A stretch of DNA of 63,832 bases, filler included, from Basidiobolus ranarum (Eukaryota), in the NCBI GenBank assembly GCA_040143965.1. It is 38 parts of 38 records of this genome, joined end to end, with 100 filler letters (N's around TTAATTAATTAA, not from the genome) between each part and the next. Parts side by side here need not be neighbours in the genome. Positions count along the whole stretch, not along the records: positions 16,890 to 18,475 come from JASJQH010011656.1; 37 more parts are not named here. One strand, 5' to 3'. The notes beneath the pieces were generated by a model. The model had not been told where the DNA came from. It ran no database searches and saw only the letters and a list, made by a program, of their open reading frames with translations. Positions within the stretch are counted from its first letter, which is position 1. Every line of letters starts with the position of its first letter. A program made the translations under genes and the position numbers. Below, one piece after another: positions 8,351 to 35,092 of the stretch.

Positions 8351-9868
8351 NNNNNNNNNNNNNNNNNNNNNNNNNNNNNNNNNNNNNNNNNNNNTTAATT
8401 AATTAANNNNNNNNNNNNNNNNNNNNNNNNNNNNNNNNNNNNNNNNNNNNCAAGCATGCTTTACAGTCATGTTTGTTTTGGGTTATTTGAGCTCTTTGCT
8501 TGGAATACAAATCAAGAGTCCAAAACCTAATAAAACTTCAGACTGTGCATTTCAATACAGGTAATTTCTAGGACTGGAATATACATTTCTTAGGCTCAAT
8601 ACTGGCTGTGCTATGGAATTGTCAGAAGGCCAGATACTGAGGAAAGTAATGGAGGTATTAGAAGTGTTACCCAATATCAATAGATTGTGTTGCATTCCGA
8701 GGTAGTCAGGGAAATACTTAGGACAGCATACGCCTCCAAAATACTACTATACCATGTTCACATTGAGAGCCCAGCTATAAGCGTTGTCTTCATAGACTGT
8801 AATAATATATTCACGCGCAACTGCCAATTGCTACTATTCCCAAACACTGTATATTCACAAGGCTAATGAATATCAAACACAACCATTTACACTTGATGAG
8901 ATATCATGGTAGGCTGAGGGTAATTCAACGTACTACATGATTTGTTGCAAACAACATCAACATTTCCACCTTAGACCAATCACAAATCACCAATTAGTAA
9001 TAAGCTACACAACATTCCAAATTTGAAGGATATCCGCTCAGCCTATATATATTAAAGTTAGAGTAGGTTGGATAGTAAACTATGAATATTTGGCTAATAT
9101 GGCGTGCTTCAACCTTATGAGACTATTCGCACAAGCCACCATTGGAAGATCTGATAGTCTGGGGCTTATAGACTATTTTCAGCTTTTGGGGGAATGAAGA
9201 TCATTTGGCGAATTCCTAGAAAGTGGACAGCTGATGCACCAGACTGAATACCTTACTATTCTTTGGCTATTATGAGTATAGTACCTACATTCAACTCAGT
9301 ACGAGGCTTAATGTGACCACAGCAACGCTTGCCTCCTCGTAACTAGCTTGGGTTCTGTAGCGTGCAGGTGGTAGTAGGATGGTATGGGCTTATCTGCTTC
9401 ATTGCTAGACACGAATGAACTCAATAACACGTATATGTCTGGGCCTGCTATGCCATATATGTAGATATTTTAAAAGACCGAGAGTAATTCACGGCACCTT
9501 AAACACAGTTAGCATATATTCTCGGAAATATGTTCCCGGACTGGACCGACGGCTCTTGATTTAGAAACACTCGATTCCTTGGATTTCCCAAAAGATTGAC
9601 AGCATTGTAAATATGAATACCTAAGAGAGTTATGGCTTTCTATAAGAAGGAGTGTTCCTCCAAGCCTGGCTATTTTTATCAATCATTGTAGGAGTTGGCA
9701 TATATTGTTGGATTGAATTAACGCTTCGCATTATATTTGGTGCATGAGGATTGCGGACGCTTCCATACCTGCAGCGATTTGAATGAGCTGTACCACATAC
9801 GTAATCCACTCGAAGCAATAAATAACAAGCGTAGCGCGTAGAATCGCATAAGCCATCCAACTATAATC

Positions 9869-10039
9869 ATGAGTAACGTTCCTTTCTACCACATTGGTAT
9901 CATGCTGTTCCCCAAGTATGATCTTCTCGACGTTACCGGGTCCACTCGCATGCTAGGATCACTTCCTGACCATTTTAAAATCACCTATCTTGGTGAAGAA
10001 GTGGGTCTTTGCCCAGCCGAACAACAGACCTCCATACAT
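9869..10039 (+). CDS. DJ-1/PfpI family (class I glutamine amidotransferase-like) protein, 5' fragment
   Basis: IGIMLFPKYDLLDVTG matches the IGILLFxGFxxLDxxGP N-terminal motif; CpG-normal upstream DNA. Confidence 0.75.
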
Positions 10040-10139
10040 NNNNNNNNNNNNNNNNNNNNNNNNNNNNNNNNNNNNNNNNNNNNTTAATTAATTAANNNNN
10101 NNNNNNNNNNNNNNNNNNNNNNNNNNNNNNNNNNNNNNN

Positions 10140-10396
10140 AATAGCGTTCAAGTGGTAATTGAGTAAAATTTGAGTTACATTTTTTGCACATGTGTTCATC
10201 CATAGTTCTTTGAGATTTTAGCCAATCATTCGCAACTATTTTGCAAGATCTTGAAATTTCACTCTTGAAACTGAAAAAATTGATTAAAATCAAATTTAAC
10301 TTGATGATTTTATGATGGTAAGTAAACGGTCAATCCCAAATGGATTAAAATTGTGACAGTTTTCCTACAATAACAATCCTCGTATTTCTGTTAGGG
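10140..10396 (-). mobile_element. CMC element left terminus
   Basis: Ends ...TTTCTGTTAGGG, the reverse complement of CCCTAACAGAAA. Confidence 0.85.
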
Positions 10397-10977
10397 GAGG
10401 GATATCAGAGTCTCAAAATCTTTTTTCTCAGGCACCTTAAACATCATTCAGCAATGAAGTTAGATAATTCTCACTTACTTGAAGCCTGGTATGGAAGCTT
10501 CTCCCACTTTTACTACCATTGATAGTGCACTGAAATTGGATTGGACAATAGTTTTTGTAGTAACAAAACAAATTGACTAGCTGCTCTCTGGTAGGTATTG
10601 GAGTGTATGAGCCACAGTATTTCTCAAATAAAGTCTCTTGGGTGGCAATAGGAAAGCCAGTAGTTGCTTTTGGATTAATGGGGAATGACCATTTTGAGTA
10701 GATGGAGAGCACAATATTAATCTTGTATTGAGCTGGCACAATACTGATCAATCCAGTGTGCATGAGTTATTTATCCAAGAATTGGAATTATCATGGTAAA
10801 ATTCCCTACATTTAGTATAATAAAATTTCGGTTTGCATTTATTATCCTAATTATTTCAATATGTGTACTTGCATGGAAATTATACAATAAACTGCATCAG
10901 AAAAGTTAATCATATTTTAATCTGCATCAATTTATTTTGTATACATATCAAAACAGCTTGAAGCGGAATGCATTATG

Positions 10978-11727
10978 CCTTAACAGAAATTTGAGGATTG
11001 TTATTGTAGGAAAACAATCACAATTTTAATCCATTTGGGGCTGACTGTTTCCTTACTGTCATAAAATTGTCAAGTTATATTTGATTTTAATCAATTTTTT
11101 CAGTTTCAGGAGTGAAATTTGAAGATCCTGCAACATAGTTGTGCTTGATTAGCTACAATCTCAGAGAACTTCGGATCAACACATGTGCAAAAACGTAACT
11201 CAAATTTTACACAACTACCACTTGAATGCTAGTTTGTCATCTTTGAAATCCATAATCTCTTTGATATATTCTCCTGAATATTTTTATAGAGTTCTTTATA
11301 CCCAGGGTGTAGCTCATACCCAATATAGATTTGTATCCATATCTCCATCAAAGCCCACCATTGTATTAATGTTGTTGATTCAACATTCTTCAGCTATCTG
11401 GTGGATACCCTGCAATATTGTGCCACTCTGTAGTGAGTTCTTCCCAGATATCTGCATGGTCAATACCAGAATGAAAGTCAAGTTGAAAGTCTTCTTCTGA
11501 AGCCACTTTTGGCATACTTGCACTGATTTCTCCCTTCATACTTTTAATAATACTCCTCAAGCACTTTGACTATTTTTATACATCCTTATAGTGTGACACT
11601 ATGGAGGGTGCTTTGTGGTGTTTGTGCGGCTTTTTGCTTGCCTTTAAGTTTAGGGATAATATCAACACTTCAAAAAGAGCCAGTTGAGGTTGGAGAGCTG
11701 TGAGTTTCATTTGATGGTGTTTTGCAA
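10978..11727 (+). mobile_element. CMC element left terminus with ORF2 3' end (ORF2 on minus)
   Basis: CCTTAACAGAAATTTGAGG; collinear with 35438 and 51471 onward. Confidence 0.85.
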
Positions 11728-11828
11728 NNNNNNNNNNNNNNNNNNNNNNNNNNNNNNNNNNNNNNNNNNNNTTAATTAATTAANNNNNNNNNNNNNNNNN
11801 NNNNNNNNNNNNNNNNNNNNNNNNNNNC

Positions 11829-13415
11829 AAGGATGCGGACTATTATCACATTCAACAACAGTTTGAACTTGTTGGCGATTTTGATCTTATCAAGTTTGAA
11901 AGCACTTGGGAGACTATTCTTCGCGATCACCCAATCCTTCGGACGATTTTTGTAGAGTCCCCTACAAGTGTATCTCGCTTTAACTTTATGCAAGTAGTAC
12001 TAACGAAGTATAAGCCAGACTGGACATACATCAAGTGTGATCATGACACACTTAATGAGAGAGTTGCCAAGTACCTAACTGCTGATAAAGCCAATACATT
12101 CCATTTGGGTCAACCGACTATGAGGTTTTCATTAGTCGAAACAGATCGGAAGTATCGATTACTACTCATCAATTGGCATCATGCTATTCTTGATGCTACA
12201 TCGTGGGGACTAGTCCAACAAGACTTTCATGATGTATACCATGAGCGGTCACGTGTTTCCATGTATCCGTTCGCAAAGTTCGTTACGGAACTTTACAGCA
12301 AAACTTCAAATGATGCTATCAAAGAGAAAAAGTATTGGCAAGAAGTGTTCTCACTACTGAGCAAAACCTCCATCCCTCGTCTTGGAGCACCTCAGGAGTC
12401 AGACCCCACCAGGAATCGTATTGCTAGTTCCATACAATTACCAGTCGAGAGGATATCACAATACGTTCAACCGCTCAAGGTAACCACATTTACACTGATC
12501 AAGGCGGCTTGGGCTATTCTCTTGCGAGAGTATACTCAAAATGATGATGTGGTGTTTGGCTATGTGGTCAATGGAAGAAATGGAGATCTGGAGGGTGTTT
12601 CAACAATCGTTGGTCCTTGCATCAATACTCTTCCAAGCCGCATACTCTGTGATAACCAAACTACCATTGCTAAGTTACTTTTGCAAATCCAAGAAAGTTA
12701 CACATCTGCACTGTCTTATCAGCAAAGTAGTTTGCGTGATATTCAAGAATGGGTGGGGGTTTCTCCTTTGTTCGACAGTATAATCAGCTATAGAGTCAAT
12801 TCATCTACTCAGAAAGAACACTCAAAAACACCCAAAGATACAATCGATGATGAAGGTGAATTTAAGCTTGTTCCGATTCAAGGAAACGAAGCTACTGAGG
12901 TAAGTCATGAAATAGTATTCTACTAAAGAATTTGTATTGTATTATAGATAAATATGTAACAATGCTTTATTCTTAGTATCCTTTAGCTTTGAGCGTGAAT
13001 GTGAGTAATGGCGAGATCACATATTACTTGGATGCAGTTAGCAGCTTGATATCGAAGCACTATGCCCAGCAGCTTGCTAATAGCTTTGAAATATTGCTGG
13101 AAGCATTAGTGAGTTTACCTACAGACACCCAGCTCCAACAATTGAGTAATGCAATGAATAAGGCATATGCACCATCGTTGTACTCTACAAAATTGAATAC
13201 ATCCACCGAAGTCGTAAATACATGTATCCATCAACTCTTTGAAGAACAAGCAAAACAATTCCCAGAGAATGTAGCTGTGCAGTTTCTAGACATGGAAACA
13301 GTTACCTACGGCGAACTGAATATCATGGCCAATCAACTGGCTCATCATTTGATCAATCTTGGTGTCGGCCCAGAGTCGATGGTGCCACTTTGTCTGGACA
13401 AGTCAGTCTCGATGA
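11829..13415 (+). CDS. Non-ribosomal peptide synthetase fragment: condensation domain plus start of an adenylation domain; intron 12900-12976
   Basis: HPILRTIF, HHAILDA (HHxxxD), VGPCINTLP, spliced EATE/YPL, CIHQLFEEQA, TYGELN (A1), LGVGPE..VPLCLDKS; GTAAGT...TTAG intron keeps the frame. Confidence 0.95.
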
Positions 13416-13515
13416 NNNNNNNNNNNNNNNNNNNNNNNNNNNNNNNNNNNNNNNNNNNNTTAATTAATTAANNNNNNNNNNNNNNNNNNNNNNNNNNNNN
13501 NNNNNNNNNNNNNNN

Positions 13516-15090
13516 ACAAATATACCATTGGAAAGGCTTGCTGGCCTATAATTTTAATCAACTTAAAGCTTCCTCCTTCTGAACAGTATAAGAGTCATAA
13601 TATTTTGATACTACCCATCATATCTGGACCTAAATCACCAGTGCTTATAGATAGCTTCTTGGAGCCTTTGAATGCAGAATTTGAACGGTTATCTAATAAG
13701 GTTCAGATGGGTGAATATTTATTAAGGCTAATATTGTTGTATGTATTGGTGACACTTCTGCCATCAGTAAACTTGGAGGTTTTCATGGGCACAACACACT
13801 ATCTTGCTGTAGGTTTTGCAAAATTAATGGCATTTACTCTAACAGGCATATGGATTACTACTATCCAAATACAAAACTAAACTTCATGATTTTACTGTTG
13901 AGAGCCTGGTCAGATTTCAATATAATCACTGATATCAATTTGCCAAATAGTCAGTCTATCATCAAACTTGGTATTAGCCATAAATCTGAGATGGTTCTCC
14001 TATAACAATAATTGTTAAATTTCTGTTAGGGTTATTTGACCAGAATGATGTAGGTCAATATGCAACTTTGGTCAAACCAATAAGTCCAAATAACTTTGAG
14101 GACTTGCTGCTAGATGTTGCCCTTGGTTATTCCAGTACTGATGATAATATATCAGAAGTTTAAGGAGAAGACAACAGTTTTGTTACAGATGCTTTGTTTT
14201 TGGCAAGCATTGGTCCACTCATTACACTTACTGTAAAGGAAGCAGCTTTGATTATTGAGGAGTGGAGAGCTCAATCCAATTTCAGCAACCAGGTGTTTAT
14301 TGGTTTTCTTACACTTTTACCACAGTTGATTGGCAACTGTTGCTTGCCACAGACCTGGTACAAGTGGAGAACATTTTTCAATTGTATGACTTATATTCCT
14401 TTAGTGATTAAACTACCTTCATGTCCAAGTGGTTGTTTGGCTTTCACCATTGATCTAAAAAACCTGAAGTCATGTACTGTTTGCACACAATTGGCAATCA
14501 CTGAATCAGATAGATGTTGTTCATGTTTAGCTTACATAGCATTGATTCCCCATCTTAAAGTTTTGATAAAATCACTCAGATATAGATCATTGATCCAATA
14601 CCAAAGTACTCACCGTAAAGCTGATGGTATTACCAATATACTTGATAGATACCACTACCAGAATCTGAAAAGTCAAGGTTTTTTTGAGAACACATATGAT
14701 CATGTATTTGCATTGGCTCTGGATGGTTTCTCACTAAACAAATATACCGTTGGAAAGGCTTGCTAGCCTATAATTTTAATCAACTTAAATCTTACTCCTT
14801 CTGAACAGTATAAGAGTCATAATATTTTGATACTAACCATTGTATCTGGACCTAAATCACCAGTGCTTATAGATAGCTTCTTGGAGCCTCTGATTACGGA
14901 ATTTGAACAGTTATCTAATGGGGTGCAGATAGGTGAATATTTTATTAAAGTAATATCATTGTATATGTTGGTGACACTCCTGCCATCAGTAAACTTGGAG
15001 GTTTTTGTGGGCACAATGCACTATCTTGCTGTAGATTTTGTCTAATCAATGGAGTTTACTCTAACAGGCATATGCGTTACTACTATCTAA
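13516..15090 (+). mobile_element. Two CMC transposase fragments separated by a ~40-bp inverted left terminus (13990-14031)
   Basis: The IISGPKSP..IDSFLEPL block occurs twice; FALALDGF catalytic-D motif; TTTCTGTTAGGG ends at 14031. Confidence 0.85.
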
Positions 15091-15202
15091 TTGGAATTTG
15101 CTNNNNNNNNNNNNNNNNNNNNNNNNNNNNNNNNNNNNNNNNNNNNTTAATTAATTAANNNNNNNNNNNNNNNNNNNNNNNNNNNNNNNNNNNNNNNNNN
15201 NN

Positions 15203-15914
15203 AGCTGGTACTTTTCAAAGTGTTGAAATTAACCCCAAAGCTAAAGGCAAGTAAAAAGCCACACAAACACCACAAAGCACCCTCAGTAGTGTCACACTAA
15301 AAGCATGTACAAAATTAGTCAAAGTGCTTGAGGAGTATTTTCAAAAGTATGAAGGGAAAAACGCATTGCAAATATGCGGAAAGTGGCTTCAGAAGAAGAA
15401 CATTCAACTTGACGTTCAGTCTGGTGTTGACCATGTAGATATCTGGGAAGAACTTAATACAGGGTGGCACAATATTGCAGGGTATATGCTGGATAACTGG
15501 AAGAATGTTGATTCTGCAAGATTGATACAATGGTGGGCTTTGATGGAGATGTTGATACAAACTTGTGTTGGGTATGAGCTAAACCTTTGGTAAGAATATC
15601 TCTATAAAAATATTCAGGAGAATATATCAAAGAGACTGGGGATTTCAAAGGTGACAAATTAGGAATCAAGTGGTAATATTGTAAAATTTGAGTCACACTT
15701 CTTGCACATGTGTTGTTCCATAGTTCTCTGAGATTTTAGCTAATCATGCACAACTATTTTGCAAGATGTTGAAAGTTCACTCCTGAAACTGCAAAAATTG
15801 ATCAAAATGAAATCTAACTTGAAAATTTTATGATGGTAAGTAAACAGTTAATCCCAAATGGATTAAAATTGTGATGGTTTTCCTATGATAAGAATCCTCA
15901 AATTTATGTCAGGG
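15203..15914 (-). mobile_element. CMC ORF2 3' end (plus strand) and left terminus, abutting a Copia RNase H
   Basis: LEEYFQKYEGKN...WWALMEMLIQ; ends TTATGTCAGGG. Confidence 0.85.
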
Positions 15915-16789
15915 CTAGTATAAAATTGGGATTTTTAGCTAAAGATATACAACGTAGATTATCTTTGAAAATTATGGTCAGGAACTTTGAAAAATGCCTA
16001 AGTCTTTAAATAGTTTCCTGAGCCACATAGCCTCCTTTCTTGTATGTGATGCTGCCATGAACTCTGCTTTGGTTGTTGAAAGTGCCATAGTGGGTTGATT
16101 CTTGCTTTTCTAAGATATGGTTGCTTCACTATAGAGAAAGGTATATCCAGTGATAGATCTTCTGACCTCCATATCACACCCCCAATCTGCAACACTGGAC
16201 CCAATTAGATCCTTTTTCACTTAACAATATGAGTATCTTAATCGCAGATCAATTGTCCCTTGCAAATATATGAAATTCTGCTTAAATGCTGTGTAATGCT
16301 CAGATCCTGGGTTTTGCACATGTTGGCTGACTACTCCCACCACAAAAGAGATATCTTGCTGGGTTCCAGTCATAGCATAGATCAAACTACCTACCATAGA
16401 TTGATAAGGGAACTCAGGGCTTTCAAATGACATATTTTGAGCCATATTTAACCAATTTTCATTATTTTTGATGGGATTTTTGACTAGTTTCACACCAGGA
16501 TCCATGGAAGTTGCTACTGGCTTGCAATTCTCCATCCTGTAACATCTGAGAATGTCTGAGATGTATTTAGATTGAATCAGAGTAATAGATTTGCTCAACA
16601 TATCTGTATGGATCTGTGGACCTAAAAAATATGCAAGTTCACCTAAATTGGTCATCTTGAATTGGACTGATAGATCTCTTTTGTTATTAGGGAGCTACAT
16701 CATGGTTAGTAGCTATTATCAGATCATCAACATATAAGGTAAGTGTCACCTTACTGTCCATATCTGTCTTAAAGTAGATCCCAAAATCC
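15915..16789 (-). mobile_element. Ty1/Copia RT and RNase H fragment
   Basis: LYVDDL, MTNLGELAYFLG, YQSMVGSLIYA, ALSTTKAEF. Confidence 0.9.
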
Positions 16790-16889
16790 NNNNNNNNNNN
16801 NNNNNNNNNNNNNNNNNNNNNNNNNNNNNNNNNTTAATTAATTAANNNNNNNNNNNNNNNNNNNNNNNNNNNNNNNNNNNNNNNNNNNN

Positions 16890-17102
16890 TTCATCATATT
16901 TGCCTGGGACAGGAGTGTCAATCTCATTGTGCTCCCAGATATTCAATCTAACTGAAGCACCAACAATCACTGAGCGGAACTTGTCATTATAGGCATCTCC
17001 ATAGTTGAAGCGGACGGTTTGACCTTTCTCGTAGGTTTCAGTCTTGCTGCCTTGCATGTTCAACTCATAAGCGAACTTGACTTTGTTGGATTCTACGGAC
17101 AT
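16890..17102 (-). CDS. DdCAD-1-like beta/gamma-crystallin-domain protein (calcium-dependent cell-adhesion molecule homologue), 5' fragment; 5'-UTR intron 17119-17179
   Basis: [10 protein letters not shown]...[43 protein letters not shown] resembles, from recall, the N-terminus of Dictyostelium DdCAD-1; NDKxxS Greek-key motif; upstream GTAAGT...TACTAAT...CAG. Confidence 0.85.
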
Positions 17103-18250
17103 GATGCGGTAATTAGAGCTGAATAGGAAGAGTAATTAGTACTGGATGCAAACTTTAGTATATGAGAGAATATACTTACATAAGAGGGATTCTTGTTTTT
17201 TCAAATTGTAGCTGAATCCTCTTAGATTTATACTTTCGTTGTAGAGTTTGAAAGTCAATATATTCTTAGTGCTTCAAGATAGTTTCGATGATCTTACCAT
17301 ATATACTACGAAATATACCGGATTTCTGCTGTGCTTCATGATACGAGAAATCACTACCAACTTGATTCAAACCTTTATTTTAAATTGTACGCCAACGGTG
17401 GCGTAGTATAACACGATAATGTTATCTATCACATATATTCACAACAGTGCATTTAGTAATGGCTTAGAATACAATTGCTCAGTACTAATCGGGGTTATAT
17501 GCGTAACATGAGTTTCTATTAACTAGTCAACAATGCAAATTTGATGATTCCAAGAACATTAGTACTACTACTAGTATCGGTATGCCTACAAGTATGTTAC
17601 TTATAGTAAGCGCTTATTATCAAAAACTTGAGCTCATTGTGCCCTTTTAAGTTGGTGGCTTAGTGGTCAGGCCAGAGCTCCATTCCCATCTCGATTTTGG
17701 AAAATAGCTTCCAGCCAACGTACTTGTAGCACGCAAGTGGTTCGACAGGATTTATATAAAATAACAAGTTATGGGCGAATGAGTGATTATATATTGAATT
17801 AGATCTGAAAAGTTGGTATACTTTTGTGGTTTACTTGATGAGAAATGCTTACTAAATGCAATAAATCTGCGATAGTGAATGGGAACTTCTTGCTACCAGC
17901 TGATTCACCAGTGCTATTTAGTGTGATGAGTAGGAGAATAATCCTTCTCAGAAACACTGACTCTGATGGTAACTAAAGTAGATGAAAGACCACGTGAAGC
18001 ACAAAAGTTGGCGTGCGTGTACCGGCTGATATTGACCAGAGACTTCAGCCACCTTGCAAAAAATTACAGAGGTCAAGAGAATATTGCCACTGGGAGGTAG
18101 TAGTCATAGAAAAATATGGAATATGTTTCGATGAAAAAATATCATTGATAAATATCTGAATGAACGGAGCTGACTGCATAGTACCTTAATTATCATTCTA
18201 CATTATCGCCTGATTAACAGAAGCTGTTGTTACCCTTAGGATCCGGATAT

Positions 18251-18475
18251 TTTTTACCTTTGACTTTATAGGAGTTACAAAGACCACTCATCCCTTGATG
18301 TGCACTACAAATGTGAGCCTCTTTTTAAAAACATATTTACTTTGGGCATGCATATAACTGATACCACATCATTATTTTTTACCTTTGACTTTATAGGAGT
18401 TACAAAGACTGCTCATCCCTTGACACACACTACAAATGTGAGCCTCTTTTTAAAAACATATTTACTTTTGGCATG
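18251..18475 (+). repeat. 125-bp direct tandem repeat (about 1.8 copies, cut by the contig end)
   Basis: ACCTTTGACTTTATAGGAGTTACAAAGAC at 18256 and 18381. Confidence 0.9.
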
Positions 18476-18575
18476 NNNNNNNNNNNNNNNNNNNNNNNNN
18501 NNNNNNNNNNNNNNNNNNNTTAATTAATTAANNNNNNNNNNNNNNNNNNNNNNNNNNNNNNNNNNNNNNNNNNNN

Positions 18576-20161
18576 AAGTTCAATGCCATTAAAAAAGTAT
18601 TCAAAAACATTCAAAATCTAAATCAAAATTGGCTTCCAAGCCAAAGCCGGCTGACACAAAAGGAAAAAAACTAGCAAGAACAGAGGACTTGATTGATGAG
18701 CAGTCTAGCAATCCAATATCCACTTTGGAAGGCATGCCAGAAACTAACTCAAGTAATGAAGAATTATTAAGCAATTTACTTTATGTGTTCCTTTCCAGTG
18801 ATAGTTCAAGTGAAGATATTGAAATCCCCCAAATATGTAGTAAATCAATAGTTGAGCAAAGTTCAACCAAAACATCATCAAGACCATCAACTTCCAAAAT
18901 GGCTACTTTGCCAACTATTGAACAACTCTCCATAGAAAATTTGGATATAATTATTACAACAAGGGAATCACAGGCAGAAGACCATAACAATTTGTATGCA
19001 ATCATAAGTATAACTATAAAGGTGTTATAGATTCCAATATAAGTAATCATGCCACATAATTGCATCTAATGCAGCATTTGGAAGCAACTAGTCAACAGTT
19101 AGACAGTCACTCACAATGAAACAAGACCTTCCATATGCTATACTTCAGCTACAGCAACATGCAGCTCCCTCCATCCATTCTTATATGGGATTTCAATTTA
19201 TCCTACACCATACATAAGAATGTCACCATTGCAATCTAGCAGAGCAAGGTATTTGTTGGCCCATTAAGCCTACACAATCACCCAAAATTGCTTGGGCACA
19301 TGAAAGTTGAAATCTCATAGGAAAACTAGCAAACCAGAAGACTCTGATTGTCAGAGCTGCCCTCACTTGCTCTGATGATGAGTGGTTTAATATTTTGGAA
19401 GCTGTGTGGAATCTTGCACAAAATCACCTGGATTCAAATCCAGGCATTACTCCAAAGGTTTTCAACTTATTTCATGTGGCTTTTCCTGGGTTTTTGCAAG
19501 CAAAAGGCAATTGGTCTAATATAGGCATAATGATGCAACATCTCAAAAATGTACGCAATTATTGACTTGGAAAAGAAAGAAAAGCAGCTAAAAAAATACT
19601 GTAAGAGCAGGAAGTTAGTAAACCCAAAGGAAAAGCAAAGGGCCTATGAGTTTAGGCACTACTCTCCCACTTACCAAATTCTTCAAACATTACAAAGATC
19701 TGCAATTCCAGAGTCAGATATGCTGGCAAAAAAGCTTAATTTCACCATGTAACTGGGTATACCAGTTGGAGGAGTGCTAAATATGGAAGTTTACCTAACA
19801 CCTGGCACCTCTCAACCAGCTAAAGCATCAGCAAATAAAACTTAAGGCTCTTCAACCTCAACTGGTACTTTCCACAGTGTTGAAATTAGCCCTAACTTAA
19901 AGGCAAGCAAACAGTCACACAGACACTGCAAAGCACTCTCAGTAGTGTCACACTACAAGGATGTACAAAAATAGTCAAAGTACTTGAGGAGTATTTTCAA
20001 AAGTATGAGGAAAAAACACAGTGGAAGCATCCAGAAGGTGGCTTCAGAAGAAATAAATTCAACTTGAAATTCAGTCTGGTGTTTACTGTGCAGATATCTG
20101 GGAAGAACTTAATACAGAGTGGCACAATATTGCAGGGTATCTGCCAGATAGCTGGAAGAAT
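18576..20161 (+). pseudogene. CMC element ORF2, near full length, degenerate
   Basis: Runs from ASKPKPADTKGKK through AKKLNFTM to WEELNTEWHNIAGYLPDSWK, with stops and frameshifts. Confidence 0.8.
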
Positions 20162-20261
20162 NNNNNNNNNNNNNNNNNNNNNNNNNNNNNNNNNNNNNNN
20201 NNNNNTTAATTAATTAANNNNNNNNNNNNNNNNNNNNNNNNNNNNNNNNNNNNNNNNNNNN

Positions 20262-20418
20262 GTTCCTGGGACCTTCCTTAGCACATTCTACACGTTAGTT
20301 TGTTTACATCTTGACAAAACTATAAATGTCAACTGAATACTCAATAAATCAATAAGTGAAAACCACCAATTCTCTAATTCTCCAAGCCACTTCCAACCGG
20401 CTCCCAAATACTTTAACA
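20262..20418 (+). mobile_element. Copia LTR family C, 3' end
   Basis: Matches 62570-62727; ends ACTTTAACA. Confidence 0.75.
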
Positions 20419-22077
20419 AATGGTACATTATTTCTCCAAGTAATTAAATAGGAGCCACTAGAGAAGTTGAACATAATCAAAGCAAATAGAGTTTTATGTC
20501 TTGCATCTGGAATCCTGATTTGCTGTCAGAATCCCATCACAATCAGGGATGAATTGTAATTTCTAATCACAAAAAATCAATTTGTAGCTCATCTAATTTA
20601 TTGCTCTACTGAATTGTTCATCTTTTATTGGCTAGATATCTGTGTAAAAACTTCTCACTTGTAATAGGATGATCTTGACAGTGTGCAATTAAATACTTTG
20701 GTTTTATTAATTATATTTTGACCAGAGTTGGCCACCCTTCTATATAATGTCATGTCATGGTGAGAAGAGTAATATCTCCCTTTTTACATTATCTTAGCAG
20801 CTCAAAAAGAATCTACCATCTATATCATCATACTATCACTGAGGTTTTTTTCCAAAGCAGAGAGAATCCTATGTTAATGTGCCACTCCTGATTTACTTTC
20901 TCATGAAAGTTCTATTCATCAGCTGGGTGTGGAGTAAGTTTTGCCAGTTTCTGCAAAAAAGCAAAACAGGCTGGTTCTGCTTACTGATCTACTTTTGTCT
21001 CAATAGCTTCTGAATACTTATTGCTGCTTTTGAAGCTGACACCATTGATGGTAGCTTTTGACTTACTGGTGGTTGCACTACTTTGGACTTATTCTCTGTG
21101 ATAGTGCCAGATTGTGCTGTATACATCATATTGGATAAAGTATTCTAAAATTTATGTGGCACAATTTGACACTATCCAGCACCCTCTGGCATGATCAATT
21201 TCAATCACATTTACTGTAATATGTTGATCCAAGGTCCAATAAATCCTGGCACAATGGAATAAGTCCTTTTATCAGCAGTAGTGTTAATACATACACTTTC
21301 CAAAAACTAAGAGTGCAAGTGTATAACTGGCAACTAAAGATGCATAATTATTTTGATTCATTAGATACTCCTGATGTACCAGAAGCAATCAATGTGTGGC
21401 CATGGCAGTATGGCAGTATGTGTTGGAGCAAGTGATCTACCTTGAGGTTTGTGTTAGGCAGTTGTTGCCTCTTCAACCAAGGTAAAAGCTTCATCTCTTT
21501 TGACTGGCCATGACCTCTGTTAAATGGCAGAATGTGTCAAGACATACCATCTACCTTGAGGTTTGTGTTTGACTAATGTGGCTTCTTCAAGCTCAGTAAG
21601 AGCTTCACCATCTCTCTCAAGCACCTGTGGTCTTGGTTTTGAGGGGGTGTGTGTTGTATTGGATTACTGTCTTTGTAGTTGGCTCTCAGGAATCAGATCA
21701 TCATCCAATAAAGTGAATGGTTCAATAGTTTTTGCAGTTGGCCTTTGTTGCTATCTTGTTGTAGAAACTTGTTAAACTGGTATGCCTATCTAGTAGCATG
21801 CTCCTTGGAGCTGACTCTTCTCCAGATATAAAAAGCTCACTGGTTGNNNNNNNNNNNNNNNNNNNNNNNNNNNNNNNNNNNNNNNNNNNNTTAATTAATT
21901 AANNNNNNNNNNNNNNNNNNNNNNNNNNNNNNNNNNNNNNNNNNNNTATAAGGAAAAACCTTCAAAGAGTTATCATTGGCAGAAGATATAAAGATTCTTA
22001 TTTTTCAAAAATTCATAGAAACTATCATGTAACCTTCAACCCACATAACTGAATGCAATAATTTGTAGAAATCCTGT

Positions 22078-22222
22078 TTCTAGGGTCACTAGATCAAACT
22101 ACACTATTATTTCTGGGTCACTAGATCAAACTACACTATTATTTCTGGGTCACTAGATCAAACTATACAATCTTACATAAACACCTGAACTGTATATACC
22201 TGAACTGTATATACCTGAACTC
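22078..22222 (+). repeat. Two adjacent minisatellites: 32-bp unit (about 3 copies) and 15-bp unit (about 3 copies)
   Basis: GGGTCACTAGATCAAACTACACTATTATTTCT repeated; ACCTGAACTGTATAT repeated. Confidence 0.9.
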
Positions 22223-23631
22223 AGTTAAAAAGATTGCCTTATTAGTATTATTAAGTGTAAACTTGGAAAATAGTTTATACAGTTTATAAGTTGCCAAGTA
22301 GCCTGAATGTGGTGATCGAATCCGATTTGTGGCAAGATTTGTATCTTGATATCGGATCGCTATATGCGAAAAGTTACCATACATAGGTTTGATGATGAAA
22401 AAAAATGGAGTTGAATTCATTGGTTAATGCTGGTAAGAAGATGCTATCTAGATGGCTGTACGATCGTAAATATCCGGTAGAAAACCCCCATAAAAAGATA
22501 TAAGCCACACTGTCGCATTACAATGCATTGGTTGAATAAAATCCATTCAACGCCGTTGAAACTGAGTGTAGAACATCATATTGATTTTTCAGTGACATGG
22601 TGAGCAATACTTGATAGATGGGTGTCATTAAATCATCTAAATTTAGTATTGATTTAGATGATTTATAGACATGACTTACTATTTCTCAGGATCTAATCAA
22701 GATAATTAGTACTAAGTGCTTTATTGTGAACGATGAAACTACCACCTACTTTCAAGTTGAAGCACTGATTTTAATAATTATTTAAGCGATACACAACTAC
22801 AACTATGTAATATGAGTACCATGTTGACAATGAGTTCAATTCCCCAAACACCACTTATTATATTGATTTTGTGTTTATAAATATTTCATTTATTCAAAAT
22901 GCTTGTAAGTAGTAATTTTCATGGTAATTTTCAACCTGAGCTGCTGCGTAACGATGTTTCTAAGGCTGATATTTCAAGCAATCAAAATTTCAATATTGAT
23001 GCTATCTAAATATCTGATTCTTCATGACTTGCTACTGTTTAAATACTATATGTGGGGATTTAAATCCATACTACCAGCAGCTTTTGTCTTTAAAACTTAT
23101 TCCTAAACTATACTTGTTTCTACTTCATTAAGCCATATAGTACTGAATAAACACTATAGCTCTCTTGATAGGGCCAGATGGCTGTAACTCTGCTAATATC
23201 TTCTATCTGAATAAGCTTAACATTATGTACTTGACTGTTTCTTTGGTCTAGTGAAGTTCCAGATTTTGATCCCATTTCTCTTGGTCAAAATAAAAGCCAA
23301 TATTATATCTGTGCAGGTACAGAATTAGGATATAAATTTTATAGACAGTCAGCCTAAGCCAACTGATATTAAAATATATTCAACATAGACACATTTATTG
23401 GATACTCAAATTCGTTCTGGATGTCATTCGGGAATTTGCAATAAGTGATAAACATGTTGAATAGGTTATATATGGGGCTGAGGTAGCACTGAGTTGTGCA
23501 CACATATTGGAATATTATAGATGGGTGAATGNNNNNNNNNNNNNNNNNNNNNNNNNNNNNNNNNNNNNNNNNNNNTTAATTAATTAANNNNNNNNNNNNN
23601 NNNNNNNNNNNNNNNNNNNNNNNNNNNNNNN

Positions 23632-23850
23632 TCAGACATTCTCAGACGTTACAGGATGGAGAATTGCAAGCCAGTAGCAACTCCCATGGATCCAGGTGTG
23701 AAATTAGTCAAAAATCCCATCAAAAATGATGAAAATCGGCCAAATATGGCTCAAAATATGTCATTTGAAAGCCCTGAGTTCCCTTATCAATCTATGGTAG
23801 GTAGTTTGATCTATGCTATGACTGGAACCCGGCCAGATATCTCTTTTGCA
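23632..23850 (+). mobile_element. Copia RT fragment, same family as 16330-16560
   Basis: MENCKPVATPMDPG...YQSMVGSLIYAMTGTRPDISFA. Confidence 0.9.
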
Positions 23851-23918
23851 GACGATCGGCACTCTATATCCACGCGGAAGATTAATCTCTTCTCAGATTT
23901 CATCGTAACTGGTTGTAG

Positions 23919-24206
23919 CTATTTGGGTGGCTCTGGGGTTGGTTCAGCCTTAGGAGGCTCCTTGGATACAACAGGTTCGGGCTTAGGATCAGGACTTGAG
24001 GCTGGAGCTGGGACTGGAGCGGTAGTAGCGGACGGATGATCAGGACTAGCGGGATGTGGTGGAGTAGCCTTAGTATCAGGCTTAGCAGTTACTGGATTGT
24101 CGAGTTTCATAGGATCTTTGTTAGGTATGTTAGCAACTGGTCCTTGTGCACTAGCAACAGAAGACAAGATTACTGTAGCAAAAATGATACTTGTGAATAT
24201 CTTCAT
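23919..24206 (-). CDS. Small secreted Pro-rich protein (95 aa)
   Basis: MKIFTSIIFATVILSSVASA signal peptide, then a P/A/K/E-rich tail ending PKAEPTPEPPK*. Confidence 0.8.
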   Translation of the reverse strand: MKIFTSIIFATVILSSVASAQGPVANIPNKDPMKLDNPVTAKPDTKATPPHPASPDHPSATTAPVPAPASSPDPKPEPVVSKEPPKAEPTPEPPK

Positions 24207-25316
24207 TGTTTGCAAGCTTTTAATGGGGAATTAGTTGAGTAGTTAATATAGAGAATAGGATTGTGACCCACAGCAATGTCGTGAAAGATAGCTGAATGAA
24301 AAGTTGGAGGAATCGTAAATGCCAAACGGAGCGATGAGCTTTTGTATGATTTGGATGGTGTGGTTTTTACCAGTGAAGTGGCCGTGAATTTACTGCTGCA
24401 CTTGTAAATCACCGACAATTATACGAACCATCTTTTGAATTCGTATTTTGTAGATGCGTATCCAGTCAGAAGTCAACGTTGATACGTTCAACAGAATTTG
24501 TAAATTAAACCTCTATAAATGTTCCTATTACGCTGATGCTTACAGATATATTTTACTCTGTAACGCATGTGCAATGAGACTTTAGGAAGTGCATTTAACT
24601 GCTTTGTTATCATTAGGAGATATTTATGAGTAATGTGCAGCGCACATAAATTGACCAGATACTGGCATGTATCGCTGTAACTTGAGTAACAATACCCAGA
24701 ATGTAAGTACAGTATAGAAGCCCTTATTTGGAGTAAACGTGAAACTACTCACTACGGCTGACAAACGTTTGTATGGAATATACAGTTATCCCATGCCATA
24801 CTATAGTTCCACATCCAGAGCCGTTCGAGGATGCAGGCTCCATATAATCAACCTAGCTAATGTAACTAGGTTACTTAAAATACATATATATGCAGGAGAA
24901 ATGGTAGCGAATGCCAGTATGTATACATGATTCATTAGGACTGAACGTTAAGCATTTGCCTACATGTAGTTCAGATGAGTTTCAATCTGTTGAGTTTAGG
25001 TTATCTCTCGATACAAATTTGGTTATGATGTTTGCTTCATTAAGACATAAACATGGCGCCGCAGTAGAATAAGTAATTTGAAGTATTTGCCAGGCAGTAG
25101 CTAAGACGTTCCAATCCGGAAATGTATGCACCTACCATGGAGAGAGCATCAAACTATAGTATAGCGCTATACTTGTATCACACTGAAAGTACTTGGAATG
25201 ATACCAGGGGCTTATTNNNNNNNNNNNNNNNNNNNNNNNNNNNNNNNNNNNNNNNNNNNNTTAATTAATTAANNNNNNNNNNNNNNNNNNNNNNNNNNNN
25301 NNNNNNNNNNNNNNNN

Positions 25317-26900
25317 CTGAGTGAAGGCTGCACATATGGAAAACATCACAGACAACTGTTTTAAAGCTGTGGAGGGATCAAATACACTCAGAATTTTGCC
25401 CTAATTCATTCTGGTTGATGTGGCCCCATGAAGAATGTCTCACTAGGTTGCAAACAGTACTTTATGACCATTTTGGGAGACAAAACATGGTATATCGGGT
25501 ATTCCTCTCATATCAGAATCTGAAGCCTTGACTATGTGCAAGCACTACAAAGCAGTAGTAGAGAAAGACTTAGCACAAAATAAAGGGCATTGTGGAGTGA
25601 TAATGGTGGAGAACACTGCTCTAAAGACATAGCTAGTTTCTTTTCTAAAAATGTAATTGAGTAATAGGAGGACCATAGTGGAGATGGCAAGAGCAATGTT
25701 ACATTATCAAAAGTTAGATTACCAAAATTGAGCTGAATCTGTCTCTACTGTTGTATGTTTCACAAACAGATGCACAACAAGATTGCTACAAAATTCTACT
25801 CCATTTGAAGCTGTATTTGGATCAAAACCAAGTGTGAATCATTTCAGGATCTTTGCTTGCTAAGAATATTGCCAAATTTCCGCTCAACAACACTCTAAAT
25901 TAGAATCTAAGAGCAGTAAGTGCATATCTAGGCTACTATGATGGATCTAAGGCCTGCAAACTTTTGATACCAATGATCCAAAGTTAATCAAGTGCAGAGA
26001 TATGATTGTTGAAGAAAGAGCAAATTTTCCACCTCAAATCCCAGTTTATCATCCAGAAAACAAAATCAGCACTATTCAGGAAGTGTCTAACAAAACTCCA
26101 GCTGTTTCTGAGCCCTATTCAACTGAAATTATTTCCCCAGTTACATCAGTGGATGATTCAGGACCTTGAAGTTCTTCCAGAAGTAGCAATAAGCCAGGGA
26201 ACTGGTACAACACTTTCAATAATGATGTCTGTGCATATGCAGTATTCTGTAGCATGACACAGACTAAAGATGGAGCTACTGAGCATAGAGGTTCAAAATT
26301 ATGGCAAAAAGCAGTGTTGGATGAGTCTTCTACTCATCAGGAAAATACAACATGGGGTTTAAGTCTTCTACCATCAGGGAGAATACCAATAAGTTGCAAA
26401 TGGGTCCACAGAGTCAAAATCAAGCCAAGGGAACCATTGAAAGGTATAAAAATAGATTAGTTGCGACAGGTTCTTCCCATACTCAAGGAGTTGTTTTTAA
26501 TGAAACCTTTGCTGCAGTAGCTAAGATTTGCTTCATTAGATTGCTTCTGGCACTCTCAGCCATTGATAACCTTAGTTTCCATCCAATGGATGTAAAAACA
26601 GCCTTTTTGAATGGAAATCTAGAAGAAGAGATCTCTATGGAGCAACCAGATGGAGTTGTTGGCCCAAAACACCCTTTTGTGGTCTGTAAACTGCACAAGT
26701 TGCTTTATGGACTCAAGCAAGCACCCAGGGCATGGTACAGCAAGACAGATACGTATTGGAAATCAGTGGAATTCCAAACATTCACAGCAGATCATAGTAG
26801 TTGCATCATAAAAACCCAATATAGGGTCCTCATCTTGGCACTAAATGTAGATGACTTGATCTTTGCCACAAATGACCTGTATGATAAAAATGTTTAGGGG
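25317..26900 (+). mobile_element. Ty1/Copia integrase-RT, degenerate
   Basis: SDNGGE, RYKNRLVA, MDVKTAFLNG, LYGLKQAPRAW, NVDDL; integrase precedes RT. Confidence 0.93.
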
Positions 26901-34986: not shown

Positions 34987-35092
34987 TTATTGTATTACTC
35001 ACTTTATTTCAACAATTGATATATATCTAGTAAGGTATATGCATATATGTATATAAAAACGATATAGTTTCATCATTTTCGTAACGTTGTAC

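What the first reader, a model, noticed from the sequence alone, without database searches (positions are those of the whole stretch)
16890..17310. Close homologue of the Dictyostelium adhesion molecule DdCAD-1 in a fungal-type genome
Seen: an ORF with no signal peptide, [10 protein letters not shown]...[44 protein letters not shown], preceded by a canonical 61-bp 5'-UTR intron and a TATA-like element. From recall, DdCAD-1 (cadA) begins MSVDANKVKF...[44 protein letters not shown], collinear from the first Met. DdCAD-1 is a Ca2+-dependent beta/gamma-crystallin adhesion and bacteria-agglutinating protein exported without a signal peptide. Inference: horizontal transfer among amoebozoans, bacteria and fungi, with a possible adhesion or bacteria-binding role. 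The flanks lack the extreme AT homopolymers of Dictyostelium, which argues against that contaminant.
Basis: partly seen in the sequence, partly recalled or inferred. Interest (0 to 1): 0.85.

Follow-up and report, generated by a model that had tools for sequence, protein, structure and literature searches.

The report
Amoeba-type adhesion lectin gene in Basidiobolus
A small orphan contig of a Basidiobolus fungus carries the first 71 codons of a gene that closely matches the social-amoeba adhesion and bacteria-clumping protein DdCAD-1, most likely picked up from an amoeba, but the gene is cut off by the contig end and its place in the fungal genome is not yet proven.

Summary
On the minus strand (17102..16890) a 71-codon ORF, open to a contig end, matches Pfam Crystall_3 (E 7e-18) and solved DdCAD-1 (1yhp, E 9e-24). 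It is 63% identical to CadA and 65% to Cad3. A 61-nt GTAAGT..CAG intron ends 16 nt before the ATG.

The window is not one locus. It is 38 contigs of about 1.6 kb joined by N44-TTAATTAATTAA-N44 spacers, so the gene's only context is its own 1586-bp contig. The host is Basidiobolus: the same 66 residues occur in B. ranarum KAK9675047.1, and a sugar-transporter piece elsewhere in the window hits only Basidiobolus.

All other named eukaryotic members of the family are dictyostelids. In an N-terminal-domain tree the fragment sits inside the group-4 Dictyostelium CadA/Cad3 clade (100/100). The full-length tree leaves its exact place unresolved.

Coding GC (0.44, GC3 0.52), the intron and the k-mer make-up look like the other contigs, not like D. 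discoideum.

Best reading (about 0.6): a real Basidiobolus gene acquired from a dictyostelid, encoding a leaderless Ca2+-dependent lectin or adhesin.

Main rival (about 0.2): a contig from an unsampled amoeba. The C-terminal domain, linkage, read depth and expression could not be checked.

The parts
16890..17102 (-). Coding exon: first 71 codons (M1..E71) of a CadA/Cad3-type protein, covering the N-terminal beta/gamma-crystallin (Crystall_3) domain. The frame is open to the contig end, so the rest of the gene is missing.
   Evidence: ORF and translation. Pfam PF08964 E 7.2e-18, profile positions 2-58 of 86. 1yhp E 9.2e-24. AF2 model pLDDT 86.7 with best fold hit 1yhp at TMq 0.79.
17103..17118 (-). 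16 nt of 5' UTR between the intron's 3' splice site and the ATG.
   Evidence: distance from intron end to ATG is 16.
17119..17179 (-). 61-nt putative spliceosomal intron in the 5' UTR (GTAAGT...TACTAAT...CAG), GC 0.31.
   Evidence: The B. ranarum model KAK9675047.1 (P0010) is spliced at the equivalent position. Splicing was not checked with RNA data.
17180..17232 (-). Putative short first (non-coding) exon with a TATAAA at 17232..17227, 53 nt upstream of the 5' splice site. In this contig the spliced upstream frame carries a stop 25 codons before the ATG and no other ATG, so M1 at 17102 is the start.
   Evidence: The transcription start is inferred, not shown.
16790..16889 (.). Artificial spacer (N44 + TTAATTAATTAA + N44) that joins this contig to an unrelated one. 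It marks the truncation point of the gene.
17233..18475 (.). Remaining upstream part of the 1586-bp contig. It has no recognisable gene, tRNA or Rfam match. GC of the whole 1373 bp upstream of the ATG (17103..18475) is 0.358. It ends in a 125-nt tandem repeat (1.8 copies, 18248..18475) at the other contig end.

Best explanation
The contig carries the 5' end of a real Basidiobolus (B. ranarum lineage) gene for a member of the Dictyostelium CadA (DdCAD-1)/Cad3 family. These are small, leaderless two-domain proteins with an N-terminal beta/gamma-crystallin domain and a C-terminal Ig-like 'Membrane_bind' domain. The fungus most likely obtained the gene by horizontal transfer from a dictyostelid related to group 4, or from a donor shared with that group. 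The coding sequence has since drifted to fungal base composition and sits behind a short fungal-type 5' UTR intron. The gene exists in at least two diverged copies whose protein sequence is kept identical.

By analogy with CadA, the product would be a cytosolically made, unconventionally exported, Ca2+-dependent lectin. Such a protein binds cell surfaces, either the fungus's own cells or Gram-negative bacteria, and clumps them.

Shown here: the homology, the fold, the start codon, the intron signals, the host-like composition, the second copy and the clade membership of the N-terminal domain.

Inferred: the direction of transfer, the presence of the C-terminal domain, and expression, export, Ca2+ binding and lectin activity.
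For: Homology and fold
- Pfam Crystall_3 E 7.2e-18. 1yhp DdCAD-1 E 9.2e-24, collinear from residue 1.
- The AF2 model has mean pLDDT 86.7. Its best PDB fold hits are 1yhp (TMq 0.79, 61% identity) and then APP 5z6e (TMq 0.75).

Host is Basidiobolus
- The 90%-identity cluster of the 71-aa protein has 2 members. The other is KAK9675047.1, a partial 'hypothetical protein' of Basidiobolus ranarum on a 2847-nt contig, identical over 66 of 66 shared residues.
- A sugar-transporter piece on another contig of the window hits only Basidiobolus (6 of 6 hits, best 81%).

The contig looks like the host
- CDS GC is 0.437 and GC3 0.521. Five other coding pieces of the window have GC 0.41-0.49. The mean for fungal genes in B. 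meristosporus is 0.4865 (PMC7466969 passages).
- The contig's 2-, 3- and 4-mer distance to the other 37 contigs ranks 14th-17th of 38, which is typical.
- The intron is 61 nt long with GTAAGT, TACTAAT and CAG signals.

Constraint on the protein
- Against the second copy, 8 of 30 spliced codon-equivalents upstream of the ATG differ, but 0 of 66 coding residues do (Fisher p 4.4e-5).
- The upstream ORF extension annotated in the other copy is closed by a stop in this one.

Foreign affinity
- Of 35 family members found (E <= 1e-3 among 3036 candidates), every named eukaryote is a dictyostelid. No other fungal protein appeared.
- The exhaustive HMMER scan of 1.84 billion representatives gave only 8 hits at E <= 1e-3, including the query itself.
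- Identity is 63-65% to group-4 CadA/Cad3, against 30-48% to other dictyostelid homologues.
- In the N-terminal-domain tree (30 rows, 70 columns) the fragment lies inside a 7-row clade with the six group-4 CadA/Cad3 proteins at 100/100. That clade is nested among dictyostelid sequences when rooted on Chromobacterium.

Function of the model protein
- CadA lacks a signal peptide and is exported via contractile vacuoles (PMC2138044 abstract and passages).
- CadA is a lectin and bacterial agglutinin, and Cad2 and Cad3 are also secreted (PMC6656538 passages).
Against: - Only 71 residues are available. The C-terminal domain is nowhere in the window (tblastn). No Basidiobolus C-terminal fragment appeared among predicted proteins of 39-399 aa.
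- Both known copies stop at a contig end within 5 codons of each other, so a truncated relic cannot be excluded.
- The contig shares no repeat with the other 37 contigs and carries no recognisable fungal gene. Its place in the fungal genome therefore rests on composition and on the label of the second contig.
- I could not establish whether the two contigs come from one assembly or from two.
- No named homologue from the best-assembled species, B. meristosporus, turned up.
- In the full-length tree the fragment's exact place is unresolved (50/84). There it sits next to the branch leading to Chromobacterium rather than clearly inside group 4. The AU test rejects neither 'with group-4 CadA/Cad3' (p 0.49) nor, quite, 'with the other 18 sequences' (p 0.050).
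- The fragment's end branch is long (0.44) in the N-terminal tree.
- The contig's GC of 0.369 lies within the range of non-group-4 dictyostelid genomes.
- Read depth, RNA evidence and the whole genome were not available.
- Basidiobolus has no known contractile vacuole, so the export route of CadA cannot simply be carried over (my own knowledge, not tested).
Confidence: 0.6

Rival explanations
1. The contig, and the similar B. ranarum contig, come from a contaminating or co-cultured amoebozoan, for instance an unsampled dictyostelid with a moderately AT-rich genome. Its DNA would have ended up among the smallest contigs of the fungal assembly.
For: - The gene is on 1.6-kb and 2.8-kb orphan contigs.
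- The contig has no host repeat or host gene.
- All other named eukaryotic family members are dictyostelids.
- The fragment is nested in a Dictyostelium clade.
- GC of 0.369 is compatible with the 32-45% GC of P. pallidum, D. fasciculatum and A. subglobosum.
- No B. meristosporus homologue was found.
Against: - The nearest relatives are group-4 species. The one group-4 genome with a figure in Table 1 of that paper, D. discoideum, is 77.6% A+T. This contig has GC3 of 0.52 and 0.358 GC in 1373 bp of non-coding sequence.
- Its k-mer make-up is typical of the other 37 contigs.
- The intron is short and only moderately AT-rich.
- Two diverged copies carry the Basidiobolus label or context.
- At 63-65% identity it is no sequenced dictyostelid.
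- Two scans of JGI metagenome contigs found no closer relative.
Confidence: 0.2
2. The DNA is truly in the fungus, but it is only a dead or truncated remnant of a transferred gene (N-terminal domain only, not a working two-domain protein).
For: - Both copies end at contig breaks within 5 codons of each other.
- No C-terminal half was found in the window or among predicted proteins.
- There is no expression evidence.
Against: - The 71 codons are intact, with a start collinear with CadA.
- 0 of 66 residues differ between copies whose upstream regions differ at 8 of 30 positions.
- The conserved N39, D40, S44, G48 and G67 positions of the family are kept.
- Breaks at the same spot in a short-read assembly are what one expects where near-identical copies meet (inference).
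Confidence: 0.12
3. The gene was inherited vertically from the common ancestor of Amoebozoa and fungi and was lost nearly everywhere else. Alternatively, it came independently from a bacterial donor.
For: - A distant two-domain relative exists in Ascomycota: APP of Neurospora crassa (5z6d), with Cad3 against 5z6d at E 2.4e-18 over both domains.
- Bacteria carry the same two-domain architecture: Chromobacterium spp., and a 214-aa group found on a MAG contig labelled Alkanindiges.
Against: - The fragment matches APP only at E 1.2e-4 (5z6d) and 3.1e-5 (5z6e), with 35% identity to 5z6e in the fold alignment. It is 27-33% identical to Chromobacterium and 38-44% to the 214-aa group, against 63-65% to group-4 Dictyostelium.
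- It is closer to D. discoideum CadA than the dictyostelid homologues of groups 1 and 2 are.
- It lies inside the group-4 clade at 100/100 in the N-terminal tree.
Confidence: 0.05

Closest known systems
DdCAD-1 / CadA (gp24) of Dictyostelium discoideum (PDB 1yhp, 2b1o; P0035)
   Same: - Collinear from Met1, with 63.4% identity over 71 residues.
- Same Crystall_3 beta/gamma-crystallin domain, and no N-terminal signal-like extension.
- Same variant of the Ca2+ motif: N-D-K-F-x-S.
- The predicted fold superposes at TMq 0.79.
   Different: - Only the first 71 of about 213 residues are known here, and the Ig-like Membrane_bind domain is unseen.
- The host is a fungus.
- Coding GC is 0.44 with GC3 0.52, and there is a 61-nt 5' UTR intron.
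- One extra residue lies in the first loop (alignment).
- No functional data exist.
Cad3 (DDB_G0285817) and its orthologues in D. citrinum, D. dimigraforme and D. purpureum (P0002, P0027, P0029, P0038)
   Same: - These are the best hits: 64.8% identity (63.8% to D. purpureum 46027) and 100% query coverage.
- They share the segments TVRFNYGD and [11 protein letters not shown].
- They belong to the same 100/100 clade in the N-terminal tree.
   Different: They come from group-4 social amoebae. In the D. discoideum paper Cad3 is known only as a secreted protein (PMC6656538 passages).
Abundant perithecial protein (APP) of Neurospora crassa (PDB 5z6d, 5z6e)
   Same: It is a fungal protein with the same two-domain plan. 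Cad3 aligns to it over both domains (E 2.4e-18). The model of the fragment superposes on its crystallin domain (TMq 0.75).
   Different: It is only distantly related to the fragment: E 1.2e-4 (5z6d) and 3.1e-5 (5z6e), with 35% identity to 5z6e in the fold alignment. The Basidiobolus gene is therefore not simply the zygomycete version of APP.
Bacterial two-domain 'beta/gamma crystallin domain-containing proteins' (Chromobacterium spp., and a 214-aa group including the MAG contig L001)
   Same: Same PF08964 + PF14564 architecture and a similar length of 203-214 aa.
   Different: - 27-33% (Chromobacterium) and 38-44% (214-aa group) identity to the fragment.
- The one gene whose DNA was read, on L001, is an unbroken ORF next to a long unbroken oxidoreductase ORF.

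Membership tests
CadA/Cad family (DdCAD-1-like, Crystall_3 + Membrane_bind) | N-terminal beta/gamma-crystallin domain of the Crystall_3 type (PF08964) | tested here: met
   E 7.2e-18 and 65 bits against a cut-off of 27.3, covering profile positions 2-58 of 86 because the domain is cut by the contig end. 1yhp E 9.2e-24.
CadA/Cad family (DdCAD-1-like, Crystall_3 + Membrane_bind) | C-terminal Ig-like Membrane_bind domain (PF14564) | not testable with these tools
   The contig ends at codon 71. There is no match elsewhere in the window. No genome, reads or encoding contigs were available.
CadA/Cad family (DdCAD-1-like, Crystall_3 + Membrane_bind) | Protein starts directly with the crystallin domain and has no signal peptide | tested here: met
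   - M1-S2-V3 aligns with residue 1 of 1yhp and of all group-4 members.
- The upstream spliced frame is closed by a stop and has no ATG.
- No signal-peptide predictor was run. The claim is read from the alignment.
CadA/Cad family (DdCAD-1-like, Crystall_3 + Membrane_bind) | Beta/gamma-crystallin fold | tested here: met
   AF2 with a 30-row alignment gave pLDDT 86.7. Foldseek PDB rank 1 is 1yhp (TMq 0.79) and rank 2 is 5z6e (TMq 0.75). The model leans on an alignment of the same family.
CadA/Cad family (DdCAD-1-like, Crystall_3 + Membrane_bind) | Ca2+-binding motif of beta/gamma-crystallins, N/D-N/D-X-X-S/T-S (motif as given in PMC3551895) | tested here: inconclusive
   - The fragment has N39-D40-K-F-R-S44. 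Positions 1, 2 and 6 fit, but position 5 is R.
- CadA shows the same departure, with M at that position (alignment).
- N39 and D40 are invariant and S44 is at least 90% conserved in 30 sequences.
- The actual Ca2+ ligands of DdCAD-1 were not looked up.
CadA/Cad family (DdCAD-1-like, Crystall_3 + Membrane_bind) | Ca2+-dependent cell adhesion or lectin agglutination of bacteria | not testable with these tools
   This activity is known for CadA only (PMC2138044 and PMC6656538 passages).
Horizontally acquired gene resident in the host genome | Phylogenetic nesting inside the donor group | tested here: inconclusive
   - N-terminal tree: the fragment is inside the group-4 CadA/Cad3 clade at 100/100.
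- Full-length tree: the placement is unresolved at 50/84.
- AU test: p 0.49 for the group-4 clade and p 0.050 for the alternative.
Horizontally acquired gene resident in the host genome | Physical linkage to native host genes or repeats | tested here: not met
   There is no repeat shared with the other 37 contigs, and no other gene on the 1586-bp contig. The neighbouring sequence in the window is artificial.
Horizontally acquired gene resident in the host genome | Host-like composition and gene structure | tested here: met
   CDS GC 0.437 and GC3 0.521, within or near the other coding pieces. The k-mer rank is 14-17 of 38. The intron is a 61-nt GT..AG intron.
APP-type fungal crystallins (Neurospora crassa 5z6d) | Close sequence kinship with APP | tested here: not met
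   E 1.2e-4 and 25.5 bits to 5z6d, against 86 bits to 1yhp.

The most novel reading that the evidence does not exclude
A social-amoeba lectin gene (the CadA/Cad3 type, which agglutinates Gram-negative bacteria) moved from a dictyostelid into the gut- and dung-dwelling fungus Basidiobolus. That would be a eukaryote-to-eukaryote transfer between two soil and dung microbes. Under this reading the gene was adapted to fungal composition and splicing, is kept under purifying selection in at least two copies, and now helps the fungus bind or organise the bacteria it lives with.
Probability: 0.3. Interest if true: 0.7.

Novelty: new member of a known kind. Interest (0 to 1): 0.5.

Why it matters
Published work on Basidiobolus describes a heavy intake of bacterial genes: 2-5% of its genes, including secondary-metabolite genes (PMC7466969 passages). 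A gene taken from another eukaryote, a social amoeba, would widen that picture.

The gene is of a kind that mediates cell-cell adhesion and clumping of bacteria in the donor lineage (PMC6656538). It therefore offers a concrete, testable candidate for how a gut fungus deals with bacteria.

The finding also extends the CadA family beyond Dictyostelia among eukaryotes. Together with the bacterial members, it shows a patchy spread that suggests repeated transfer.

I found no paper that mentions Basidiobolus together with DdCAD-1 (0 papers). Two further searches on DdCAD-1 homologues and on transfer gave nothing relevant. In the record the protein is a 'hypothetical protein'.

The case is limited by the 71-residue fragment and the orphan contig.

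Tried and rejected
- The whole-genome search, earlier findings and sequencing runs. As a result, read depth, RNA evidence, linkage and the 3' end could not be obtained.

Searches that found nothing useful
- Two scans of JGI metagenome contigs, with P0005 and with the fragment itself, found no confirmed relative.
- A scan of prokaryote genome contigs with alignment A1 found one locus only, L001. The patterns used were few, so this is weak evidence on how common the family is in bacteria.
- The ESM Atlas look-up gave only generic crystallin or inhibitor_I36-like clusters and no structure.
- tblastn of eight full-length homologues against the window found no C-terminal half.
- Rfam and tRNA scans of the contig were empty.
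- NCBIfam has no model for the protein.
- Literature searches for a published DdCAD-1 homologue in fungi, or for its transfer, returned nothing pertinent. PMC7549232 and PMC3348937 held only passing mentions. The bioRxiv preprint on 19 Basidiobolus genomes was seen as a listing only, because my 'find' call failed on a term that was too short and I did not repeat it.

Ideas considered and rejected
- That the 61-aa N-terminal extension of KAK9675047.1 is real coding sequence. It is closed by a stop in this copy.
- That the neighbouring copia-type reverse-transcriptase piece (16221..16694) is linked to the gene. It lies on another contig.

Rows left out of the trees
- From the 35 hits: P0047 and P0063 (short fragments).
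- From the same hits: P0051-P0055, P0058 and P0060 (Cad2-like proteins without a Crystall_3 hit).
- P0010, which is identical to the query over the overlap.
- P0024, P0027, P0029 and P0069 were added from the cluster lists.
Full report
**1. What is in the sequence**

The ATG is at 17102 and the frame stays open to base 16890, which gives 71 codons (protein P0001).

Base 16890 follows a block of N44 + TTAATTAATTAA + N44. A scan of the whole window shows that it consists of 38 pieces of 1574-1591 bp in falling order of length, joined by 37 such spacers. The window is therefore a string of small unplaced contigs, not one locus. The gene sits on the piece 16890..18475 (1586 bp, GC 0.369) and is cut off by that contig's end. 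Nothing outside the piece is linked to it.

Upstream on the minus strand there is a 61-nt GTAAGT...TACTAAT...CAG intron (17179..17119, GC 0.31) that ends 16 nt before the ATG. A TATAAA at 17232 lies 53 nt before the 5' splice site. With the intron removed, the frame upstream of the ATG meets a stop 25 codons back and holds no other ATG. M1 is therefore the start, collinear with Met1 of DdCAD-1.

The rest of the contig has no recognisable gene, tRNA or Rfam family. It ends in a 125-nt tandem repeat of 1.8 copies.

**2. Is the similarity real?**

Yes.
- Pfam gives Crystall_3 (PF08964) at E 7.2e-18 and 65 bits, against a cut-off of 27.3. The match covers profile positions 2-58 of 86.
- Against all solved structures the best match is DdCAD-1 (1yhp/2b1o) at E 9.2e-24, with query residues 2-71 on chain residues 1-69. 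Next comes 5z6e/5z6d at E 3.1e-5 and 1.2e-4.
- An AlphaFold2 model built with a 30-row family alignment has mean pLDDT 86.7. Its best fold matches are 1yhp (TMq 0.79, 61% identity) and the crystallin domain of the abundant perithecial protein (APP) of Neurospora crassa, 5z6e (TMq 0.75, 35% identity).

**3. Whose genome is it?**

The exact-sequence look-up places P0001 in a 90% cluster of two members. One is P0001 itself, on a 1586-nt NCBI contig. The other is KAK9675047.1, 'hypothetical protein K7432_016697, partial [Basidiobolus ranarum]', 127 aa on a 2847-nt contig. The two are identical over 66 of 66 shared residues.

A sugar-transporter piece on another contig of the window (48404..48751) hits only Basidiobolus proteins: 6 of 6 hits, best 81% to B. 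meristosporus and 80% to B. ranarum.

The other contigs hold pieces of copia-type, Tf2-type and tnp2-type mobile elements, an NRPS condensation plus adenylation fragment, a subtilase piece and CsbD-like repeats. This fits a repeat-rich Basidiobolus assembly. The published work describes NRPS genes and many bacterial genes in this genus (PMC7466969 passages).

**4. Host gene or contaminant?**

Evidence for the host:
- The coding part has GC 0.437 and GC3 0.521. Five other coding pieces in the window have GC 0.41-0.49, and the 1373 upstream bases have GC 0.358.
- The contig's di-, tri- and tetranucleotide distance to the centroid of the other 37 contigs ranks 14th, 16th and 17th of 38, which is unremarkable.
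- The second copy (P0010) differs from this one at 8 of 30 spliced codon-equivalents just upstream of the ATG, and by an indel further up. It differs at 0 of 66 coding residues (Fisher p 4.4e-5). This looks like purifying selection on a protein kept in two diverged copies. It is a protein-level comparison, because I could not see the DNA of the other contig.

Evidence against, or neutral:
- The contig shares no repeat with any other piece, which is true of 10 of the 38 pieces. It also carries no fungal gene.
- Both copies are on tiny contigs and break within 5 codons of each other.
- I cannot tell whether the two contigs come from one assembly.
- No named B. meristosporus homologue was found.
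It does not exclude dictyostelids as such: P. pallidum is 68.0% A+T, D. fasciculatum 66.2% and A. subglobosum 55.0% (PMC4334915 Table 1).

**5. Family and distribution**

A word-indexed search for longer proteins returned one hit, D. discoideum DDB_G0285817 ('putative calcium-dependent cell adhesion molecule 3'), at 65% identity and 100% coverage.

The exhaustive HMMER scan of 1.84 billion representatives found only 8 proteins at E <= 1e-3, including the query. Among them was a full-length 214-aa protein, P0005, at 44% identity. The remainder were long multi-repeat crystallin proteins.

A profile search with alignment A1 found 35 proteins at E <= 1e-3 among 3036 candidates.
- The named eukaryotes are all dictyostelids: D. 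discoideum, D. citrinum, D. dimigraforme, D. firmibasis, D. purpureum (two genes), Heterostelium album, Polysphondylium violaceum, Cavenderia fasciculata, Acytostelium subglobosum (two genes) and Synstelium polycarpum.
- The named bacteria are Chromobacterium species.
- An unnamed 214-aa group (P0005, P0024, P0032-34, P0069) includes a 2666-nt contig of a MAG labelled Alkanindiges (L001). There the gene is an unbroken ORF next to a long unbroken phytoene-desaturase-family ORF, so the group looks bacterial.
- No other fungal protein appeared.

APP of N. crassa is a distant two-domain relative. Cad3 matches 5z6d at E 2.4e-18, and the identity of 5z6d comes.

**6. Where does the fragment belong?**

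BLASTP identities over the 71 residues:

| Compared with | Identity |
|---|---|
| D. discoideum Cad3, D. citrinum, D. dimigraforme | 64.8% |
| D. purpureum 46027 | 63.8% |
| CadA | 63.4% |
| D. firmibasis | 54.9% |
| D. purpureum 57459 | 47.9% |
| P. violaceum | 42.9% |
| 214-aa bacterial-looking group | 38-44% |
| Cavenderia, Heterostelium, Acytostelium | 30-35% |
| Chromobacterium | 27-33% |

The full-length ML tree (30 rows, 215 of 262 columns, LG+C20) puts the fragment outside an 18-row clade (92/100) of the other dictyostelid and 214-aa sequences. It sits beside the group-4 CadA/Cad3 sequences, but its exact branch has only 50/84 support.

AU tests gave the following:
- Holding the fragment with the six group-4 CadA/Cad3 proteins costs 0.19 log-likelihood units (p 0.49).
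- Holding it with the 18-row clade costs 4.95 (p 0.050).

In a tree of the columns the fragment covers (70 of 94 kept), it lies inside a 7-row clade with exactly those six group-4 proteins at 100/100. When rooted on Chromobacterium, this clade is nested among the other dictyostelid sequences. The fragment's own branch is long, at 0.44.

The specific kinship with the group-4 CadA/Cad3 subfamily is therefore well supported. The position within or just beside it is not.

**7. Interpretation**

Vertical descent from the common ancestor of fungi and Amoebozoa cannot explain a fungal sequence that is closer to D. discoideum CadA than the homologues of dictyostelid groups 1 and 2 are. The distant fungal APP shows what deep divergence in this family looks like.

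The family is present across Dictyostelia and, among fungi, at this closeness only here. The simplest history is therefore a transfer from a dictyostelid near group 4 into the Basidiobolus lineage. It would be old enough for base composition, a 5' UTR intron and about 35% protein divergence to accumulate. Both organisms are soil and dung microbes (my knowledge).

The main alternative is that both contigs come from an unsampled amoeba in the culture. I give the resident, transferred-gene reading about 0.6, contamination about 0.2, a resident but dead fragment about 0.12, and vertical or bacterial origin about 0.05.

**8. How it would work**

CadA is a 24-kDa protein without a signal peptide. 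It is exported through contractile vacuoles and mediates Ca2+-dependent cell adhesion (PMC2138044 abstract and passages). It is also a lectin that agglutinates Klebsiella and protects feeding amoebae, and Cad2 and Cad3 are secreted too (PMC6656538 passages).

The fragment keeps the family's conserved positions: F10, G27, N39 and D40 are invariant, and G18, Y24, F32, S44, G48 and G67 are at least 90% conserved in 30 sequences. It also keeps the CadA form of the crystallin Ca2+ motif, N-D-K-F-x-S. The canonical motif is N/D-N/D-X-X-S/T-S as stated in PMC3551895.

I therefore expect a leaderless, Ca2+-stabilised lectin or adhesin that binds sugars on bacterial or fungal surfaces. All of this is inference. 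The membrane-binding domain, export route, expression and activity are untested.

**9. Novelty and score**

This is a new member of a known family in an unexpected host. The 71-residue piece shows no new mechanism.

A well-supported amoeba-to-fungus transfer of a bacteria-agglutinating lectin would interest people who study gene transfer and fungus-bacteria relations. The evidence here stops at one domain on an orphan contig. Interest is 0.5.

I found no paper that links Basidiobolus and DdCAD-1. Supplementary tables of HGT candidates could not be read.

Noticed in passing
window 1..63832 (joints e.g. 16790..16889): The window is a concatenation of 38 contigs of 1574-1591 bp, sorted by length. 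They are joined by 37 identical spacers of N44 + TTAATTAATTAA + N44, which put a stop in all six frames. Any feature that spans a joint is an artefact.
   Followed up: yes
window 11829..13414 (+): An NRPS fragment fills one whole contig: a condensation domain (PF00668, E 1.4e-49) followed by the start of an AMP-binding domain. This fits the bacterial-type secondary-metabolite genes reported for Basidiobolus.
   Followed up: partly
window 40457..42035 (-): Two ORFs with CsbD-like repeats (PF05532, E 1.8e-14 and 4.3e-17) lie on one contig. CsbD is a bacterial general-stress family, so this may be another transferred gene.
   Followed up: no
window 47176..47418 and 48398..48751 (+): The C-terminal end of one sugar transporter and the N-terminal start of another lie on the same 1.6-kb contig, so they are tandem transporter genes. 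The closest B. ranarum relatives in the database (P0077, P0079) carry Sugar_tr domains but are named 'Bifunctional purine biosynthesis protein PurH', which looks like a naming error in that record.
   Followed up: partly
protein P0010 (KAK9675047.1), compared with window 17103..17400 (-): The annotated B. ranarum model has a 61-aa N-terminal extension read through the 5' UTR and its intron. In the window's copy the same frame is closed by a stop, so the extension is probably an annotation artefact.
   Followed up: yes
L001 639..1283 (+), MAG contig JASLIR010000131.1: A full-length 214-aa two-domain CadA-like protein (49% identical to Cad3) lies as an unbroken ORF on a contig binned as Alkanindiges, next to a phytoene-desaturase-family gene. 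Its group (P0005, P0024, P0032-34, P0069) clusters with dictyostelid sequences in the full-length tree. This hints at a separate exchange between bacteria and dictyostelids.
   Followed up: partly
window 18248..18475: A 125-nt tandem repeat (1.8 copies, 93% matches) sits at the far end of the contig. It probably explains why the assembly stops there.
   Followed up: no
window, 28 of 38 contigs (e.g. 26325..26894, 28826..29947, 57233..57982, 63241..63831, 13518..15042): Most pieces are fragments of copia-type elements (RVT_2, gag, integrase), Tf2-type elements and tnp2 (Transposase_21) elements, and they share repeats with each other. Several are broken by stops.
   Followed up: partly
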